The position numbers and the translations under genes are program-made. A stretch of DNA of 64,000 bases from Escherichia coli (GTDB taxonomy: Bacteria > Pseudomonadota > Gammaproteobacteria > Enterobacterales > Enterobacteriaceae), in NCBI RefSeq assembly GCF_003334785.1, contig NZ_QOWV01000005.1. One strand, 5' to 3'. The notes beneath the pieces are model-generated. The model was not told where the DNA came from. It searched no databases and was given only the letters and a program-made list of their open reading frames with translations. Below are positions 31,058-54,734 of this stretch, in pieces. How positions within the stretch are numbered: position 1 is the first letter of the stretch; the number at the start of each line of letters is the position of its first letter.

Positions 31058-31492
31058 CAGTGTTTCTCCTTTCGCCCGCCAGAGTAAAAAGCAACCGTTT
31101 ACGTTAATGAAACTGTCTAAACACATGCTCGTGGAGTGCCAGTTTTTGCGAGGAAGGGGAGTTAGAGACAGGAATTGCGGAGGCAATCACATAATCGTGG
31201 TTAAACCACGAAAATGAGAAGAGAACCTGACAATGGAATTATCTGTAATTTTCTCATATTGATATTTCATTAATCATTCTGGCATGTCGCACTCTCGCAT
31301 TTAATCGTTTTTATCTGGATAGCGCTCTTTTGATCGGCAATGTTGAAATAATGAAAGCGGCATAGATTGAGGGGCAATAATTTGAACTCAGTCGCAAAAT
31401 TATAATTAAAACGGTCATGCTACCTAATATATGCCCGTTTATTGCATCGCGAAATTTGAGAAGACATAACTCATTAAATGAAAGGGATGCAA

Positions 31493-46200: not shown

Positions 46201-46364
46201 ACGGGAGTGGCACAGGTTTCACCGAAGACGCTAACAGTTTTACCTTTTACAGGTGAGTAAAACTGTTGCTCGGGAATACCAAAGATTGAGCGTTGTTGTT
46301 GGTATTCATCAAATATGCGCGTCAAAAGTTCCTCAAACGGAATGGGACGCATAATATCCCCCAT
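43266..46364 (-). CDS. ygfK: large Fe-S/flavin oxidoreductase (GltD-like NAD(P)H domain + ferredoxin-like Cys clusters), 1032 aa
   Basis: Track ORF 43266..46364, MGDIMRPIPFEELLTRIFDEYQQQRSIFGIPEQQFYSP...; GAGPAG Rossmann motif and C-terminal CxxCxxC clusters. Confidence 0.92.
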   Translation of the reverse strand: MGDIMRPIPFEELLTRIFDEYQQQRSIFGIPEQQFYSPVKGKTVSVFGETCATPVGPAAGPHTQLAQNIVTSWLTGGRFIELKTVQILDRLELEKPCIDAEDECFNTEWSTEFTLLKAWDEYLKAWFALHLLEAMFQPSDSGKSFIFNMSVGYNLEGIKQPPMQQFIDNMMDASDHPKFAQYRDTLNKLLQDDAFLARHGLQEKRESLQALPARIPTSMVHGVTLSTMHGCPPHEIEAICRYMLEEKGLNTFVKLNPTLLGYARVREILDVCGFGYIGLKEESFDHDLKLTQALEMLERLMALAKEKSLGFGVKLTNTLGTINNKGALPGEEMYMSGRALFPLSINVAAVLSRAFDGKLPISYSGGASQLTIRDIFDTGIRPITMATDLLKPGGYLRLSACMRELEGSDAWGLDHVDVERLNRLAADALTMEYTQKHWKPEERIEVAEDLPLTDCYVAPCVTACAIKQDIPEYIRLLGEHRYADALELIYQRNALPAITGHICDHQCQYNCTRLDYDSALNIRELKKVALEKGWDEYKQRWHKPAGSGSRHPVAVIGAGPAGLAAGYFLARAGHPVTLFEREANAGGVVKNIIPQFRIPAELIQHDIDFVAAHGVKFEYGCSPDLTIEQLKNQGFHYVLIATGTDKNSGVKLAGDNQNVWKSLPFLREYNKGTALKLGKHVVVVGAGNTAMDCARAALRVPGVEKATIVYRRSLQEMPAWREEYEEALHDGVEFRFLNNPERFDADGTLTLRVMSLGEPDEKGRRRPVETNETVTLLVDSLITAIGEQQDTEALNAMGVPLDKNGWPDVDHNGETRLTDVFMIGDVQRGPSSIVAAVGTARRATDAILSRENIRSHQNDKYWNNVNPAEIYQRKGDISITLVNSDDRDAFVAQEAARCLECNYVCSKCVDVCPNRANVSIAVPGFQNRFQTLHLDAYCNECGNCAQFCPWNGKPYKDKITVFSLAQDFDNSSNPGFLVEDCRVRVRLNNQSWVLNIDSKGQFNNVPPELNDMCRIISHVHQHHHYLLGRVEV

Positions 46365-46446
46365 AACCCTCTCCTTAGCTTATACAGATATCATTGAGTG
46401 ACCGGTGTTGAGAAATCCGGTGGTTTAGGGGGATAGAGCAACAATC

Positions 46447-46462
46447 GCACCACTCTTGCCAG
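46447..46462 (-). promoter_or_regulatory. candidate sigma-54 -24/-12 element (CTGGCAA-N5-GTGC) ~72 nt upstream of ygfK start
   Basis: Minus-strand reading CTGGCAAGAGTGGTGC has GG and GC at the canonical 10-nt spacing; inference only. Confidence 0.3.
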
Positions 46463-46515
46463 GTTTGGCGGGAAATATAAAAAAATGTGAGGCGGCTCGA
46501 AACTTAAGGGCTTTT

Positions 46516-46531
46516 TGTGAATGAACTCACA
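46516..46531. promoter_or_regulatory. perfect CRP-type palindrome TGTGA-atgaac-TCACA upstream of the ygfK candidate promoter
   Basis: tgtgaatgaactcaca read directly; matches the TGTGA-N6-TCACA core of the cAMP-CRP consensus. Confidence 0.45.
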
Positions 46532-46685
46532 GGTGCTAAATGAGAATTAAAATCACTCCTGAAAATTATTATTGCCAGCCCATTTATCAATTTTTCTCTT
46601 TTCTCAAAATCAGTGATTCCTTATCATTATGATAATGAGTGCCGGAAGGATTAAATATTTGAACGCAATCGTTTAACTACGTTTT

Positions 46686-47264
46686 CTAAATTTCAGTATA
46701 CCTTTCCTTCGCTGTAATAAAGTCGTCCGGAGTATCAATATCTAAAATTATTTCTGCATTTTCTATTTCGACGGAATAATGATCTCCCATAAGGAGTGCC
46801 TGACGCATATTGGTGACATTGGGTCGTTGGATTGCCTGCATCAGGCATGGTTTTGACACTAAAATCGGATGGCCGGGGATGCCATTATGGAGTGGCAGTA
46901 TTGCGCCATCATTTCGTAACGACCAGATTTTTCTAAAAATATCGATGGTGAGGGTTGGCATGTCACCGTGGGTGAGAAAACAATGTTCTGTTTGCACTGC
47001 GGGTACTGCGGCCTTGACGGATGTTAGTAAACCCTGCGCATAATCTGGGTTGTGAATAATAGTGATATTGCTCTGGTTCGCATAACGTTCGTGCAGTTCA
47101 TTACCACGATAGCCGGTGACTAAAATAATTCGGCTACAAAACTGCAACGCATTTTTGATACTTGTATCAAGAATTGTTCCCTGTTCCCAGGGTAACATCA
47201 TTTTCCATTGCCCCATTCTTGATGATAATCCGGCAGCGGTAATTATACAGTCGATGGCTGACAT
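46686..47264 (-). CDS. mocA: molybdenum cofactor cytidylyltransferase (MobA-like NTP transferase), 192 aa
   Basis: Track ORF 46686..47264, MSAIDCIITAAGLSSRMGQWKMMLPWEQGTIL...; MobA-like fold signature. Confidence 0.9.
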   Translation of the reverse strand: MSAIDCIITAAGLSSRMGQWKMMLPWEQGTILDTSIKNALQFCSRIILVTGYRGNELHERYANQSNITIIHNPDYAQGLLTSVKAAVPAVQTEHCFLTHGDMPTLTIDIFRKIWSLRNDGAILPLHNGIPGHPILVSKPCLMQAIQRPNVTNMRQALLMGDHYSVEIENAEIILDIDTPDDFITAKERYTEI

Positions 47265-47366: not shown

Positions 47367-48137
47367 GTGAAAAGTATAGTTGACCCATCGGCATTAGTCA
47401 TTGATTTAGGTGCGCAGAAACGTCCCACTGTGATTTCTGTTGTTGGTGCTGGGGGGAAAACCAGCTTGCTTTTTTGGCTGGCAGAACTGCTCCAGGCTAG
47501 CGGCAGGCGTGTGTTAATCACGACGACGACACATATGTTTATGCCAACGTCTCACTGGCCCGTGGTTTTCTGTCGTGATCCCGCCATGCTTCCTCATGCG
47601 TCTCTTACATCCCCCATTTCATTTTGTTTTCACAGCTGGAAAGCGAACCAGGGAAAAGTGCAGGGATTTACGCCAGAAGCGATTGATGCACTGGTGCAAC
47701 GACCAGAGTGTGACGTAATTCTCATTGAAGCAGATGGCTCGCGTGGAATGCCGTTAAAAGCGCCTGATGAGCACGAACCTTGCATACCCAAAAGCAGTTG
47801 CTGCGTGATTGCTGTGATGGGAGGACATACTTTGGGCGCGAAAGTGAGCACAGAAAATGTCCATCGCTGGTCGCAGTTTGCTGATATTACCGGGTTAACA
47901 CCTGATGCAACCTTGCAACTGAGCGATCTCGTTGCGCTGGTTCGCCACCCTCAGGGGGCGTTTAAAAACGTACCGCAAGGTTGTCGGCGAGTCTGGTTCA
48001 TTAACCGTTTTTCTCAATGTGAGAATGCGATTGCACAAAGCGAGCTCCTTCAACCGCTGCAACAACACGACGTAGAGGCAATCTGGCTGGGCGATATACA
48101 AGAACATCCTGCAATCGCGCGCAGATTTGTGAATTAG
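47367..48137 (+). CDS. yqeC: selenium-dependent hydroxylase accessory protein YqeC, 256 aa
   Basis: Track ORF 47367..48137; P-loop-like GAGGKTS motif. Confidence 0.88.
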   Translation: MKSIVDPSALVIDLGAQKRPTVISVVGAGGKTSLLFWLAELLQASGRRVLITTTTHMFMPTSHWPVVFCRDPAMLPHASLTSPISFCFHSWKANQGKVQGFTPEAIDALVQRPECDVILIEADGSRGMPLKAPDEHEPCIPKSSCCVIAVMGGHTLGAKVSTENVHRWSQFADITGLTPDATLQLSDLVALVRHPQGAFKNVPQGCRRVWFINRFSQCENAIAQSELLQPLQQHDVEAIWLGDIQEHPAIARRFVN

Positions 48138-48184: not shown

Positions 48185-49810
48185 ATGAATATTTTCACAG
48201 AGGCTGCAAAACTCGAAGAGCAAAATTGTCCGTTTGCTATGGCGCAAATTGTTGATAGCCGAGGCTCGACTCCCCGCCATTCTGCACAAATGTTAGTGCG
48301 CGCCGATGGTTCTATCGTCGGTACAATTGGTGGCGGAATGGTTGAGCGGAAGGTGATTGAAGAGTCGCTTCAGGCATTGCAGGAACGTAAGCCGCGATTA
48401 TTCCATGGACGTATGGCTCGTAACGGTGCGGATGCTGTCGGGTCAGATTGTGGAGGTGCAATGTCAGTATTTATCAGCGTCCATGGTATGCGTCCACGTC
48501 TGGTGTTGATTGGCGCGGGGCATGTCAACCGGGCGATAGCCCAGAGTGCGGCGCTATTAGGATTTGATATTGCCGTTGCTGATATTTATCGCGAAAGCCT
48601 CAATCCTGAACTATTCCCACCATCAACCACGCTTCTCCATGCTGAGTCGTTTGGTGCGGCAGTGGAAGCACTGGATATTCGCCCTGATAATTTTGTCCTG
48701 ATTGCCACGAATAATCAGGATCGTGAAGCCCTCGACAAACTCATTGAACAGCCCATTGCATGGTTGGGGTTGCTGGCAAGTCGTCGCAAGGTTCAGCTTT
48801 TCCTGCGTCAATTGCGTGAGAAAGGCGTGGCTGAAGAACATATTGCCCGTTTACATGCGCCCGTTGGTTACAACATAGGTGCGGAAACGCCGCAGGAGAT
48901 CGCCATCAGCGTGCTGGCAGAAATATTACAGGTGAAAAATAACGCGCCGGGTGGGCTGATGATGAAACCTTCTCATCCTTCCGGACACCAGCTGGTGGTG
49001 ATTCGCGGTGCGGGAGATATCGCCAGTGGTGTGGCGCTACGTCTGTATCATGCGGGTTTTAAAGTGATCATGCTGGAAGTGGAAAAACCGACAGTGATTC
49101 GTTGTACCGTGGCGTTTGCCCAGGCCGTGTTCGATGGCGAAATGACGGTCGAAGGCGTCACTGCTCGCCTGGCAACCAGCTCTGCGGAAGCGATGAAACT
49201 TACCGAACGCGGATTCATTCCTGTGATGGTAGATCCCGCCTGTTCATTGCTTGATGAACTGAAACCGCTTTGCGTGGTGGACGCTATTCTGGCGAAACAG
49301 AATTTGGGAACGCGGGCAGATATGGCACCAGTAACAATCGCGCTTGGGCCGGGCTTTACTGCTGGGAAGGATTGTCATGCGGTAATTGAAACAAATCGCG
49401 GGCACTGGCTCGGTCAGGTGATTTACTCTGGTTGTGCGCAGGAGAATACCGGTGTTCCTGGCAATATTATGGGGCATACCACCCGACGGGTGATCCGTGC
49501 TCCTGCTGCAGGCATTATGCGATCCAACGTGAAATTAGGCGATCTGGTGAAAGAGGGCGATGTGATTGCCTGGATTGGTGAGCATGAAATTAAAGCACCG
49601 TTGACGGGGATGGTGCGTGGCTTGTTGAACGACGGCCTGGCAGTGGTTGGTGGTTTTAAAATTGGTGATATCGATCCTCGTGGTGAAACCGCTGATTTCA
49701 CCAGCGTTTCTGATAAAGCCCGGGCGATTGGCGGCGGCGTACTTGAGGCGTTAATGATGTTGATGCATCAGGGCGTGAAAGCGACAAAAGAAGTGCTGGA
49801 AGTGGCTTAA
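48185..49810 (+). CDS. yqeB: XdhC/CoxI-family maturation factor YqeB, 541 aa
   Basis: Track ORF 48185..49810, MNIFTEAAKLEEQNCPFAMAQIVDSRGSTPRH... Confidence 0.9.
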   Translation: MNIFTEAAKLEEQNCPFAMAQIVDSRGSTPRHSAQMLVRADGSIVGTIGGGMVERKVIEESLQALQERKPRLFHGRMARNGADAVGSDCGGAMSVFISVHGMRPRLVLIGAGHVNRAIAQSAALLGFDIAVADIYRESLNPELFPPSTTLLHAESFGAAVEALDIRPDNFVLIATNNQDREALDKLIEQPIAWLGLLASRRKVQLFLRQLREKGVAEEHIARLHAPVGYNIGAETPQEIAISVLAEILQVKNNAPGGLMMKPSHPSGHQLVVIRGAGDIASGVALRLYHAGFKVIMLEVEKPTVIRCTVAFAQAVFDGEMTVEGVTARLATSSAEAMKLTERGFIPVMVDPACSLLDELKPLCVVDAILAKQNLGTRADMAPVTIALGPGFTAGKDCHAVIETNRGHWLGQVIYSGCAQENTGVPGNIMGHTTRRVIRAPAAGIMRSNVKLGDLVKEGDVIAWIGEHEIKAPLTGMVRGLLNDGLAVVGGFKIGDIDPRGETADFTSVSDKARAIGGGVLEALMMLMHQGVKATKEVLEVA

Positions 49811-53537: not shown

Positions 53538-54734
53538 TTAAGGTGCTACAGCGTGTTTGCCTTCCCAGACAACTTCGCGGTAGTGCTTCACGTCGGTGTC
53601 GCCTTCAGTGCTGATAACCAGCACCACGGCATCTTTGTTCAGCGCCAGTTTTTCCATCAGGCTTTGACGTTGCGGGTGATAATGAACCGCTGCGAGAACG
53701 CCCAAACCGACAGCGCCGGATTCACCGGAGATGATGCGCGGGTCGTTGCCGTACGGATTACCCAGCACGCGCATACCTAATGCGGCAACGCTGTCCTGGC
53801 AGGAGATGAATTGGGTGGCGCAGTTACGTAGGATTTCCCAGCCCAGCGGGTTAGGTTCGCCACAGGCCAGGCCTGCCATGATGGTGGCCATATCACCGCC
53901 AACGTTGACGATGTCGCCTTTGACGCCGGAGCGATAAATACAGTCAGCTTTGTCAGGTTCAACAATAATGCTGTGCAGATTTTGCGGGCTATAGACGTCG
54001 ACCAGATAACCCAGCACACCACCGGCCATTGCTCCGACACCGGCTTGCAGCAGAACGTGCGTCGGGGTTACGCCCATTTCACGCATTTGCTCGACGGCTT
54101 CATCTGCCAGGGTTGCGTAGCCTTGCATGATCCAGGTTGGGATTTTGGTGTAACCTTCCCATGCCGTGTCCTGTACCACTTCCCAGCCGTGCTGCTGCGC
54201 GTGTTGCATGGTCAGGCGAACGGTATCGTCATAGTTCATATCCGTGACGATGCACTCGGCACCGAGGTTCAGAATGGCGTCAACGCGTTCCTGAGCAGAA
54301 CCTTTCGGCATGTAAATCACCGCATTCTGTCCGAGTTGCTGTGCTGCCCACGCCACACCGCGCCCGTGGTTGCCGTCGGTGGTGGTCGCGAAAGTCATTT
54401 TTTCGCCGATGGCATTTTTCAGGTGCTCAAATGACAGCGTTTCGATATCAAGATGATATTTTTCACACAATAATTGAGCGATGGCGTACGCACCGCCAAG
54501 CATTTTGAAGGCGTTCAGACCGAATCGTTTTGATTCGTCTTTGACGAGAATTTTCTTCACACCAAAAAGGTTTGCGAGATCGTCCAGCGCACAAAGCGGT
54601 GTTGGGCGATAACCAGCTATTTTCTGGTGGAACTGGCGCGCCAGTTTGGCCTGGCTTTGCGAAAAGAGCGGTGATGTTTCGCCGTTGAAAAATTTGTTAT
54701 CGGCGATATCAATCTTCAATGAGAAAACGGACAT
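53538..54734 (-). CDS. ygeX: PLP-dependent diaminopropionate ammonia-lyase, 398 aa
   Basis: Track ORF 53538..54734; PLP fold-type II lysine motif region (KDESKRFGLNAFKMLG). Confidence 0.92.
   Translation of the reverse strand: MSVFSLKIDIADNKFFNGETSPLFSQSQAKLARQFHQKIAGYRPTPLCALDDLANLFGVKKILVKDESKRFGLNAFKMLGGAYAIAQLLCEKYHLDIETLSFEHLKNAIGEKMTFATTTDGNHGRGVAWAAQQLGQNAVIYMPKGSAQERVDAILNLGAECIVTDMNYDDTVRLTMQHAQQHGWEVVQDTAWEGYTKIPTWIMQGYATLADEAVEQMREMGVTPTHVLLQAGVGAMAGGVLGYLVDVYSPQNLHSIIVEPDKADCIYRSGVKGDIVNVGGDMATIMAGLACGEPNPLGWEILRNCATQFISCQDSVAALGMRVLGNPYGNDPRIISGESGAVGLGVLAAVHYHPQRQSLMEKLALNKDAVVLVISTEGDTDVKHYREVVWEGKHAVAP

What the first reader, a model, noticed from the sequence alone, without database searches (positions are those of the whole stretch)
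46447..46531. Same architecture upstream of ygfK: sigma-54-like -24/-12 (CTGGCAA-N5-GTGC) with a perfect TGTGA-N6-TCACA palindrome ~55 bp upstream
The leader of the ygfK-ssnA-ygfM-xdhD operon carries a GG-N10-GC element with TGGCA context about 72 nt before the start codon, and a perfect CRP-core palindrome upstream. Recurrence of the same two-part arrangement at two operons of the cluster suggests they form one sigma-54 regulon, possibly under YgeV and catabolite control. This is sequence pattern only.
Basis: inference. Interest (0 to 1): 0.5.

Follow-up and report, generated by a model that had tools for sequence, protein, structure and literature searches.

The report
Known sigma-54/CRP promoter of ygfK

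Summary
The CRP palindrome is real. It is unique in the window (0.06 expected) and kept at a fixed distance from the promoter in about 30 Enterobacterales. It is also the exact box published as a cAMP-CRP genomic-SELEX target (Shimada 2011).

The true sigma-54 site is GTGGTGCGATTGTTGCT (46453-46437), 9 bp downstream. It scores 12.1 bits (rank 6) and is homologous in 78 of 80 ygfK loci from Escherichia to Vibrio and Shewanella. It is the motif called under a strong sigma-54 ChIP-seq peak (Bonocora 2015, OS31).

Further upstream I found:
- A second, more widely conserved CRP-like box at -67.5.
- A palindrome, T(A/C)TCA-N3-TGA(T/G)A, at -202. It is shared with the ygeW, ygfT and xdhA promoters and is a candidate YgeV enhancer site.

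Sigma-54 and CRP binding here, and a proposed YgeV regulon, are already in the literature. The regulon idea is supported but the register is wrong. Interest is low; the residual interest is whether CRP co-activates here, unlike at other sigma-54 promoters.

The parts
46437..46453 (-). Sigma-54 promoter, true register: GTGGTGCGATTGTTGCT. The -24 GG is at 46451/46450 and the -12 GC at 46439/46438.
   Evidence: Weight matrix score 12.1 bits, rank 6 of about 128,000 positions. A homologous best hit is present in 78 of 80 ygfK loci, and the -24 becomes canonical CTGGCG/CTGGCC in distant taxa. It is identical to the MEME motif of ChIP-seq peak OS31, FAT 26, distance 62 (PMC4591121).
46446..46462 (-). 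It overlaps the true site but is not the conserved promoter.
   Evidence: Score 9.1 bits, rank 37 in the window. The pattern TGGCA-N7-TGC is at chance frequency. It is present only in E. coli, L001 and L003, is broken in E. whittamii L002 (CTGGTAAG), and is absent in all other genera.
46426..46426 (-). Predicted transcription start (an A), giving a 62-nt leader to the ygfK ATG at 46364.
   Evidence: Inferred as 12 nt after the C of the -12 GC, which equals the 'motif centre + 19' rule of PMC4591121. It reproduces their published distance of 62. The ChIP peak centre, 3014019, maps to window 46427.
46516..46531 (.). CRP site 1, TGTGAGTTCATTCACA, centred at -97.5.
   Evidence: Unique perfect palindrome, 0.06 expected. 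The half-sites are kept with 0-1 mismatch while the 6-bp spacer varies freely, at a fixed 70.5-71.5 bp from the sigma-54 motif, in 29 of 46 distinct Enterobacterales sequences. The exact box is listed as a cAMP-CRP SELEX target, and the spacer was the third most cloned fragment with 9 clones (PMC3105977 Tables S2/S3).
46486..46501 (.). Proximal CRP-like box, TTCGAgccgccTCACA (TGTGAGGCGGCTCGAA on the + strand), centred at -67.5.
   Evidence: Listed as a second CRP box by Shimada 2011. The G-A ... TCAC core is conserved in 39 of 46 distinct Enterobacterales sequences at the same position +/-1, and in recognisable form at nearby positions in Aeromonas, Photobacterium and Shewanella. It reads TGCGA-N6-TCACG/A in Erwinia, Pantoea and Buttiauxella. 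Its binding has not been shown separately from site 1.
46622..46634 (.). Candidate enhancer (UAS) palindrome, TATCATAATGATA, centred at -202. It is the presumed binding site of the enhancer-binding protein (YgeV).
   Evidence: T(A/C)TCA-N3-TGA(T/G)A occurs 5 times in the window against 0.11 expected; three of the five lie upstream of the ygfK, ygeW and ygfT sigma-54 promoters. It is present in 70 of 80 ygfK loci, mostly at about -181/-182, -202/-203 or -214, at 3.0 per kb against 0.11 per kb elsewhere. Binding by YgeV is an inference.
46600..46613 (-). Conserved block CTGATTTTGAGAAA, with a UAS-like half-site, about 22 bp downstream of the palindrome.
   Evidence: It keeps its position relative to the palindrome across Enterobacterales, even where both are shifted 21 bp closer to the promoter. 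Its function is unknown; it may be a second, degenerate activator site.
46538..46556 (-). Conserved block GTGATTTTAATTCTCATTT (TGATw-N5-TCTCA), at -131 to -113, just upstream of CRP site 1.
   Evidence: After the promoter itself, it is among the most conserved stretches in the anchored stack, and is recognisable in Aeromonas and Photobacterium. Its function is unknown.
46362..46364 (-). ygfK start codon. An AAGGAG Shine-Dalgarno lies upstream. It is the first gene of ygfK-ssnA-ygfM-xdhD.
   Evidence: ORF 46364..43266, 1032 aa, followed by tightly packed ORFs on the same strand. RefSeq annotates it as ygfK.

Best explanation
This is the regulatory region of the E. coli ygfK-ssnA-ygfM-xdhD operon, which acts in anaerobic uric-acid and purine degradation. 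Transcription starts from an enhancer-dependent sigma-54 promoter whose -24/-12 elements are GTGGTGCGATTGTTGCT (46453-46437). The predicted +1 is 46426 and the leader is 62 nt. Sigma-54 holoenzyme sits there as a closed complex; its occupancy is shown by published ChIP-seq. It needs an AAA+ activator bound far upstream. The most likely activator is YgeV, the PAS/sigma-54-interaction/HTH_8 protein encoded in the same cluster. I infer that it binds the palindrome TATCATAATGATA at -202 and perhaps the degenerate half-site blocks downstream of it. Between enhancer and promoter lie two CRP boxes on roughly the same helical face. One is a perfect box at -97.5, whose spacer fragment bound cAMP-CRP in vitro in published SELEX. 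The other is a weaker but more widely conserved box at -67.5. The most likely role of cAMP-CRP (inferred) is to bend the intervening DNA so that the activator reaches the polymerase. This is the job IHF does at other sigma-54 promoters, and it would make expression depend on the absence of glucose as well as on the purine or urate signal. The same layout recurs at ygeW, ygfT and xdhA, so the cluster behaves as one sigma-54/YgeV/CRP regulon.
For: Promoter register:
- The weight matrix scores 12.1 against 9.1 bits.
- The published sigma-54 ChIP-seq peak has FAT 26 and carries exactly this motif, and the published distance of 62 is reproduced.
- ygfK was among the genes raised by sigma-54 overexpression, as cited in PMC4591121.
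- No sigma-70-like promoter is found on the ygfK strand.

CRP:
- The palindrome is unique and perfect.
- Its half-sites are conserved, its spacer is free and its distance to the promoter is fixed.
- SELEX-clos recovered the spacer in 9 clones, and the exact boxes are listed.
- CRP-like boxes lie at -67.5, -68.5 or -77.5 in all four promoters of the cluster.
- Glucose represses uric-acid degradation in wild-type E. coli. A strain whose native Crp site upstream of ygeW was replaced by constitutive promoters escapes this repression (10.1101/2025.05.19.654654).

Activator:
- YgeV has PAS, Sigma54_activat and HTH_8 domains.
- The palindrome occurs 5 times against 0.11 expected.
- It lies at phased distances in 70 of 80 loci.
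- A YgeV iModulon is proposed, and its listed members include this operon.
- Uric acid induces ygfK.
Against: - No transcription start has been mapped for ygfK, so the register rests on conservation, matrix score and a ChIP peak that cannot by itself resolve 9 bp.
- YgeV binding to the palindrome is untested. No ygeV homologue lay within 3 kb in the other loci, so co-occurrence could not be checked.
- Every mechanistically studied case of CRP at a sigma-54 promoter is inhibitory: dctA, glnAp2, Pu and nif (PMC3900584). Positive action here would therefore be unusual.
- The glucose effect could act through ygeV or ygeW expression or through inducer uptake rather than at this promoter.
- CRP site 1 is degenerate or lost in the Klebsiella oxytoca group, Raoultella, some Kluyvera, Aeromonas and the Vibrionaceae, so it is not essential to the design.
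- The proximal box has a consistently non-consensus left half (TTMGA), so it might bind something other than CRP.
Confidence: 0.72

Rival explanations
1. One reading: CTGGCAAGAGTGGTGCG, with GG at 46460/59 and GC at 46448/47. Alternatively, it works as a second overlapping sigma-54 site that adds to occupancy in E. coli.
For: It has a better -24 'TGGCA' than the published site's 'TGGTG' and the correct GG-N10-GC spacing. ChIP-seq resolution cannot separate sites 9 bp apart. The peak is strong, at FAT 26.
Against: It scores 9.1 bits, a level reached by 37 positions in the window. Its -12 is GTGCG rather than TTGCW. It is absent in every genus beyond Escherichia and one Citrobacter and is broken in E. 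whittamii, while the downstream site is near-invariant. MEME chose the downstream motif.
Confidence: 0.05
2. CRP binds here but acts negatively. As at glnAp2, dctA and Pu, cAMP-CRP would hold the sigma-54 closed complex or mis-orient the loop, damping expression when carbon is poor.
For: All characterised CRP effects on sigma-54 promoters are inhibitory and can act from upstream sites (PMC3900584). A protein-induced bend between enhancer and promoter can also block activation (IHF sites at -44 and -64 repressed glnAp2 constructs, PMC2709558).
Against: Uric-acid degradation is repressed by glucose, not stimulated by it. This is the opposite of what a CRP anti-activator predicts. A strongly conserved, phase-locked pair of sites in a catabolic operon fits positive catabolite control better. 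No promoter-level data exist either way.
Confidence: 0.17
3. The TGTGA-N6-TCACA palindrome and/or the proximal box is in vivo the target of another protein. This could be the enhancer-binding protein itself or another CRP/FNR-family factor, and CRP binding would then be only an in vitro property.
For: The palindrome lies at -97.5, within the usual range for sigma-54 enhancers. The left half of the proximal box is consistently TTMGA, not TGTGA. I found no in vivo CRP binding data for this site in the one ChIP-exo supplement I searched.
Against: The pattern of conserved bases matches CRP contacts: TGTGA/TCACA with a free 6-bp spacer. Binding of the spacer fragment was cAMP-dependent and among the strongest in SELEX. 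A separate, better enhancer candidate exists at -202 and is shared by all four promoters. In Erwinia, Pantoea and Buttiauxella the proximal box reads TGCGA-N6-TCAC, a classic CRP variant.
Confidence: 0.08
4. The CRP site serves a sigma-70 promoter (class I or II) that drives ygfK or an antisense transcript, independent of sigma-54.
For: An AT-rich stretch with TATATT (46479-46474) lies downstream of CRP site 1. A weak sigma-70-like match exists on the + strand at 46526-46553.
Against: The scan finds no sigma-70-like promoter on the ygfK strand, and the single + strand hit is below the number expected by chance, 1 against 1.7. TATATT is not conserved across genera. It would put CRP site 1 near -56.5 and the proximal box near -26.5, neither of which is an activating position. 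What is conserved is the distance from the CRP box to the sigma-54 motif.
Confidence: 0.04

Closest known systems
Sigma-54 binding site OS31 upstream of ygfK (Bonocora et al. 2015, PLoS Genet, PMC4591121); flagged there as a predicted promoter in EcoCyc
   Same: It is the same locus and the same motif as the conserved register found here (GTGGTGCGATTGTTGCT), with the same predicted start and 62-nt leader. The companion sites at ygeW, xdhA and ygfT are also in the window.
   Different: The paper shows binding, not transcription, and does not discuss CRP or the enhancer.
cAMP-CRP genomic SELEX targets ygfJ>ygfK-ssnA, ygeV<>ygeW and ygfT<>ygfU (Shimada et al. 2011, PLoS One, PMC3105977)
   Same: The exact boxes TGTGAGTTCATTCACA and TGTGAGGCGGCTCGAA (ygfK) and TGTGATCAACCCCACA (ygeW) are listed. 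Binding in vitro was cAMP-dependent.
   Different: No promoter context, sign of regulation or link to sigma-54 was given there. The fixed -97.5/-67.5 geometry and its conservation are shown only here.
CRP action at sigma-54 promoters glnAp2, dctA and Pu (Wang laboratory; summarised in PMC3900584)
   Same: CRP lies upstream of a sigma-54 closed complex and can influence the path of the enhancer-bound activator. Effects depend on bend geometry.
   Different: Those effects are inhibitory, and at glnAp2 and Pu they come from weak, recruited or absent sites. Here there are two dedicated, conserved, high-quality sites in a catabolic operon whose pathway is repressed by glucose, which suggests activation.
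IHF-assisted sigma-54 promoters (Pu of the TOL plasmid; the Klebsiella nif promoters)
   Same: The layout is the same: distal enhancer, a DNA-bending protein site around -60 to -100, then -24/-12. It probably works in the same way.
   Different: The bending protein would be CRP, a signal-responsive factor, rather than IHF. I did not scan systematically for an IHF site.
DioR sigma-54 regulon of Clostridiales (PMC6615313)
   Same: The gene set is orthologous (ygeW-ygfK-ssnA-ygeY, yqeB, yqeC-ygfJ) and is under sigma-54 with a dedicated enhancer-binding protein.
   Different: It is in a different phylum, its enhancer motif is reported as distinct, and no CRP is involved.
CRP-dependent sigma-54 operons hyf and prpBCDE of E. 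coli (from my own knowledge, not checked here)
   Same: These are catabolic or anaerobic sigma-54 operons reported to need cAMP-CRP for expression.
   Different: The mechanisms there are not established as architectural. The site positions were not compared.

Membership tests
Sigma-54 (RpoN) dependent promoter | GG and GC doublets exactly 10 bp apart in a TGGCAC-N5-TTGCW context | tested here: met
GTGGTGCGATTGTTGCT at 46453-46437 scores 12.1 bits on a matrix built from 49 independent sites. Its -12 TTGCT is perfect and its -24 is TGGTG.
Sigma-54 (RpoN) dependent promoter | Conservation of the -24/-12 element at orthologous promoters | tested here: met
   A homologous best hit lies 66-171 nt before the ygfK ATG in 78 of 80 loci across the Gammaproteobacteria and two Betaproteobacteria.
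Sigma-54 (RpoN) dependent promoter | Occupancy by sigma-54 holoenzyme in vivo | not testable with these tools
   Published ChIP-seq peak OS31, FAT 26 (PMC4591121). Taken from the literature.
Sigma-54 (RpoN) dependent promoter | rpoN- and activator-dependent transcription from a mapped start | not testable with these tools
   The only evidence is indirect. ygfK rose on sigma-54 overexpression, as cited. It is listed as a member of the YgeV iModulon. No mapped start was found.
Sigma-54 (RpoN) dependent promoter | Upstream enhancer (UAS) for an AAA+ activator | tested here: inconclusive
   A strongly enriched, phase-conserved palindrome lies at -202 and is shared with ygeW, ygfT and xdhA. YgeV has the required domains. 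Binding has not been shown.
CRP (CAP) binding site | Match to TGTGA-N6-TCACA | tested here: met
   Site 1 is a perfect match and unique in the window. The proximal box has 2 mismatches, both in one half.
CRP (CAP) binding site | Evolutionary constraint on the half-sites but not on the spacer | tested here: met
   29 of 46 distinct Enterobacterales sequences keep 0-1 mismatch with many different 6-bp spacers.
CRP (CAP) binding site | cAMP-dependent binding of purified CRP | not testable with these tools
   Published genomic SELEX recovered 9 clones of the spacer and lists the boxes (PMC3105977).
CRP (CAP) binding site | crp/cya-dependent change in expression of the downstream operon | not testable with these tools
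   Only pathway-level glucose repression is reported.
YgeV regulon (purine/uric-acid cluster) | Shared cis-element upstream of each sigma-54 promoter of the cluster | tested here: met
   T(A/C)TCA-N3-TGA(T/G)A or a one-mismatch variant lies at -131 to -234 in ygfK, ygeW, ygfT and xdhA.
YgeV regulon (purine/uric-acid cluster) | Loss of expression in a ygeV mutant | not testable with these tools
   Reported only for ygfT, as cited in PMC10602906. Not reported for ygfK.

The most novel reading that the evidence does not exclude
Across the Gammaproteobacteria, the uric-acid/purine cluster uses cAMP-CRP as a built-in architectural co-activator of sigma-54 transcription. A CRP box would be phase-locked at about -67.5 (plus -97.5 at ygfK in Enterobacterales and -77.5 at ygeW). 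It would replace IHF and make the YgeV-bound enhancer, T(A/C)TCA-N3-TGA(T/G)A at -130 to -235, productive only when cAMP is high. This would be the first natural, conserved case of positive CRP action on sigma-54 promoters. All mechanistically studied cases so far are inhibitory. It would also define the YgeV operator.
Probability: 0.35. Interest if true: 0.45.

Novelty: already known. Interest (0 to 1): 0.22.

Why it matters
The ygfK-ssnA-ygfM-xdhD operon belongs to the gut-bacterial uric-acid degradation cluster now being engineered against hyperuricaemia. Knowing its true promoter, its catabolite-control sites and its likely activator site tells engineers what to keep or replace. It also offers a natural test of whether CRP can help, rather than hinder, a sigma-54 promoter. 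As a discovery, however, both the sigma-54 site and the CRP site were already published. The useful outcomes here are the corrected register and the conserved geometry.

Tried and rejected
Rejected on matrix score, pattern frequency and lack of conservation.
- **Sigma-70 promoter using the CRP site.** The scan found none on the ygfK strand and one chance-level hit on the other strand. TATATT at 46479-46474 is not conserved.
- **Fur box as an explanation of the TTATCATAATGATAA palindrome.** It matches only 13 of 19 positions at ygfK, a level reached by 18 positions in the window. There is no comparable match at the ygeW, ygfT or xdhA palindromes.
- **Leader RNA element.** No Rfam match at E <= 1 in 46250-46800. 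The leader is only 62 nt.
- **Small ORFs in the spacer.** Only 20-34 aa mechanical ORFs with no support.
- **Other repeats in the spacer.** Only the UAS palindrome and weak pairs.
- **ygeV homologue next to ygfK in other genera.** None within the 3-kb flanks, so regulator and site co-occurrence could not be tested.
- **In vivo CRP ChIP-exo supplement (PMC5957442).** No ygfK or ygeW entry in the text held, so it is uninformative.
- **Papers not held.** Reitzer and Schneider 2001 and Huo et al. 2006 are not in the library. The original prediction and the phase rules for CRP bends could not be read.
- **Sigma-54 promoter between the 48012 palindrome and yqeB.** None is apparent.

Full report
**Where we are**

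The window is E. coli chromosome, 100% identical to many complete genomes over this stretch, read on the opposite strand to MG1655. The finding lies in the 321-bp spacer between mocA (ygfJ; 47264-46686, minus strand) and ygfK (46364-43266, minus strand). ygfK is followed by the tightly packed ssnA, ygfM and xdhD. All elements below are read on the minus strand.

**Checking the observation**

- The strings exist exactly as described. TGTGAGTTCATTCACA runs from 46531 to 46516, 55 bp upstream.
- The palindrome is statistically notable. It is the only perfect TGTGA-N6-TCACA in 64 kb, with 0.06 expected. Only four one-mismatch sites occur elsewhere in the window.
- The -24/-12 pattern is not notable. 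TGGCA-N7-TGC occurs 6 times against 4.3 expected.

**Which -24/-12?**

Bonocora et al. (PMC4591121) report a sigma-54 ChIP-seq peak upstream of ygfK: OS31, FAT 26, flagged as a promoter predicted in EcoCyc. Their motif is GTGGTGCGATTGTTGCT, 62 nt from ygfK.

I built a weight matrix from the 49 other intergenic motifs in that paper.
- The published register scores 12.1 bits, rank 6 of about 128,000 positions in the window.
- The known ygeW and xdhA sites came top, which validates the matrix.

I then fetched 80 loci encoding YgfK orthologues, from Escherichia to Aeromonas, Vibrio, Photobacterium, Shewanella and two Betaproteobacteria.
- In 78 of the 80 loci, the best sigma-54 hit upstream of ygfK is the homologue of the published register, 66-171 nt before the ATG. 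In distant taxa the -24 becomes canonical: CTGGCGTGATTGTTGCT in Edwardsiella and CTGGCCTGATTGTTGCT in Aeromonas.
It is broken in E. whittamii and absent elsewhere.
- The ChIP peak centre maps to window 46427, next to the start predicted from the conserved register (46426).

No sigma-70-like promoter is predicted on this strand, and no Rfam family matches the spacer or leader.

**The CRP site**

Shimada et al. (PMC3105977) isolated the ygfJ-ygfK spacer as the third most frequent clone in cAMP-CRP genomic SELEX, with 9 clones. They list exactly TGTGAGTTCATTCACA, plus a second box TGTGAGGCGGCTCGAA, as the sites for ygfK-ssnA. They also list TGTGATCAACCCCACA for ygeV<>ygeW and a box for ygfT<>ygfU.

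My comparison adds the following.
- The perfect box keeps 0-1 mismatch in 29 of 46 distinct Enterobacterales sequences while its 6-bp spacer changes freely.
- Its centre stays 70.5-71.5 bp upstream of the first base of the sigma-54 motif, which puts it at about -97.5.
- It is degenerate or lost in the Klebsiella oxytoca group, Raoultella, some Kluyvera, Aeromonas and the Vibrionaceae.
- The second box (TTCGAgccgccTCACA, 46501-46486, centre -67.5) is a poorer match but is conserved more widely: as YTMGA-N6-YTCACR in 39 of 46 Enterobacterales sequences and in Aeromonas, as TGCGA-N6-TCACG/A in Erwinia, Pantoea and Buttiauxella, and in recognisable form in Photobacterium and Shewanella.

**The rest of the architecture**

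The anchored stack of orthologous upstream regions shows further conserved blocks.
- The clearest is a palindrome, TATCATAATGATA (46634-46622, centre -202).
- The pattern T(A/C)TCA-N3-TGA(T/G)A occurs 5 times in the window against 0.11 expected. Three of the five lie upstream of the ygfK, ygeW and ygfT sigma-54 promoters. xdhA carries one-mismatch copies.
- In the 80 orthologous loci it is present in 70. Most copies centre at about -181/-182, -202/-203 or -214, steps of one or two helical turns. Its density is 3.0 per kb in the 300 bp upstream against 0.11 per kb elsewhere.

This is what an enhancer for a sigma-54 activator looks like. YgeV, encoded in the cluster, has PAS, sigma-54-interaction and HTH_8 domains. 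Fur was considered for the ygfK copy and rejected.

All four sigma-54 promoters of the cluster also carry a CRP-like box: at -67.5 or -68.5 in ygfK, xdhA and ygfT, and at -77.5 in ygeW. These positions are in the same helical register.

**How it most likely works**

*Shown, here or in the literature*
- Sigma-54 holoenzyme occupies the -24/-12 at 46453-46437.
- cAMP-CRP binds the spacer in vitro.
- Uric acid induces ygfK.
- The operon is listed as a member of a proposed YgeV iModulon.
- Glucose represses uric-acid degradation in wild-type E. coli, and a strain whose Crp site upstream of ygeW was replaced escapes this.

*Inferred*
- YgeV binds the -202 palindrome.
- The two CRP-induced bends bring YgeV to the closed complex, as IHF does elsewhere, so the operon needs both the purine signal and high cAMP.

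*Main caveat*
- Every dissected case of CRP at a sigma-54 promoter is inhibitory: dctA, glnAp2, Pu and nif (PMC3900584).
- Bends between enhancer and promoter can help or hinder depending on position (PMC2709558).
- I give co-activation roughly three to one over anti-activation, on the physiological evidence only.

**Comparison and novelty**

The sigma-54 site, the CRP boxes and the idea of one YgeV-controlled regulon are all in print. In Clostridiales the orthologous genes form a sigma-54 regulon under the activator DioR. The finding is therefore already known, and its one original detail, the register, is wrong.

What this analysis adds is modest:
- phylogenetic proof of the register;
- the fixed CRP geometry;
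- a second, more ancient CRP-like box;
- a candidate YgeV operator shared by four promoters.

The open and mildly interesting question is whether CRP acts positively on sigma-54 transcription here.

Noticed in passing
window 48012-48024 (+), inside the 3' end of yqeC, about 160 bp upstream of the yqeB start at 48185: There is another perfect copy of the candidate enhancer palindrome (TCTCAATGTGAGA). Copies recur at the equivalent place, about 1.4-1.6 kb upstream of the ygfK promoter, in most Enterobacterales loci. I saw no sigma-54 motif between it and yqeB. yqeB is in the clostridial DioR sigma-54 regulon.
   Followed up: partly
window 11573-11589 (+), 184 nt upstream of the gcvT start at 11773: CTGTCGCGATTTTTGCA is the third-best sigma-54 matrix hit in the window, at 14.7 bits. 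It has GT instead of the -24 GG and is not among the published intergenic ChIP-seq sites I read. A one-mismatch CRP box, published as a gcvT target, lies at 11347-11362.
   Followed up: no
window 46402-46424 (-), ygfK leader +3 to +25: The leader holds ACCACCGGATTTCTCAACACCGG. The CCGYCGG followed by a TTATC/TCTCA half-site is conserved in many Enterobacterales. It forms a 75% inverted repeat with the upstream block at 46600-46619. It may be a downstream regulator half-site or an mRNA feature.
   Followed up: no
window 54446-54458 (+), inside ygeX: An intragenic perfect match to the palindrome pattern (TATCAAGATGATA). It could be chance or an internal site.
   Followed up: no
window 46538-46556 (-) and 46600-46613 (-): Two conserved blocks, GTGATTTTAATTCTCATTT and CTGATTTTGAGAAA, carry enhancer-like half-sites in other arrangements (TGATw-N5-TCTCA). 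In lineages where the palindrome lies 21 bp closer to the promoter, the second block moves with it. No factor is assigned.
   Followed up: partly
window 62010-61994 (xdhA), 56089-56073 (ygeW) and 31430-31446 (ygfT) sigma-54 motifs and their upstream regions: All three published sigma-54 sites of the cluster are in the window. Each has a CRP-like box at -67.5 (xdhA, TTTTAACGTCATCACA, weak), -77.5 (ygeW) or -68.5 (ygfT). Each also has palindrome copies at -131/-152, -234 or -199.
   Followed up: partly
loci L055, L061-L066, L075 and L080 (Photobacterium and Vibrio), about -95 to -100 relative to the predicted ygfK start: In most of these loci, where Enterobacterales have CRP site 1, there is a compressed palindrome, TGTGTTCACA (TGTG-TT-CACA). 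It cannot be a standard CRP site.
   Followed up: no
YgeV, window 56458-58236 (+): YgeV has PAS, AAA+ sigma-54-interaction and HTH_8 domains but no receiver domain. The description 'orphan response regulator' in PMC9426417 therefore does not fit its architecture.
   Followed up: partly
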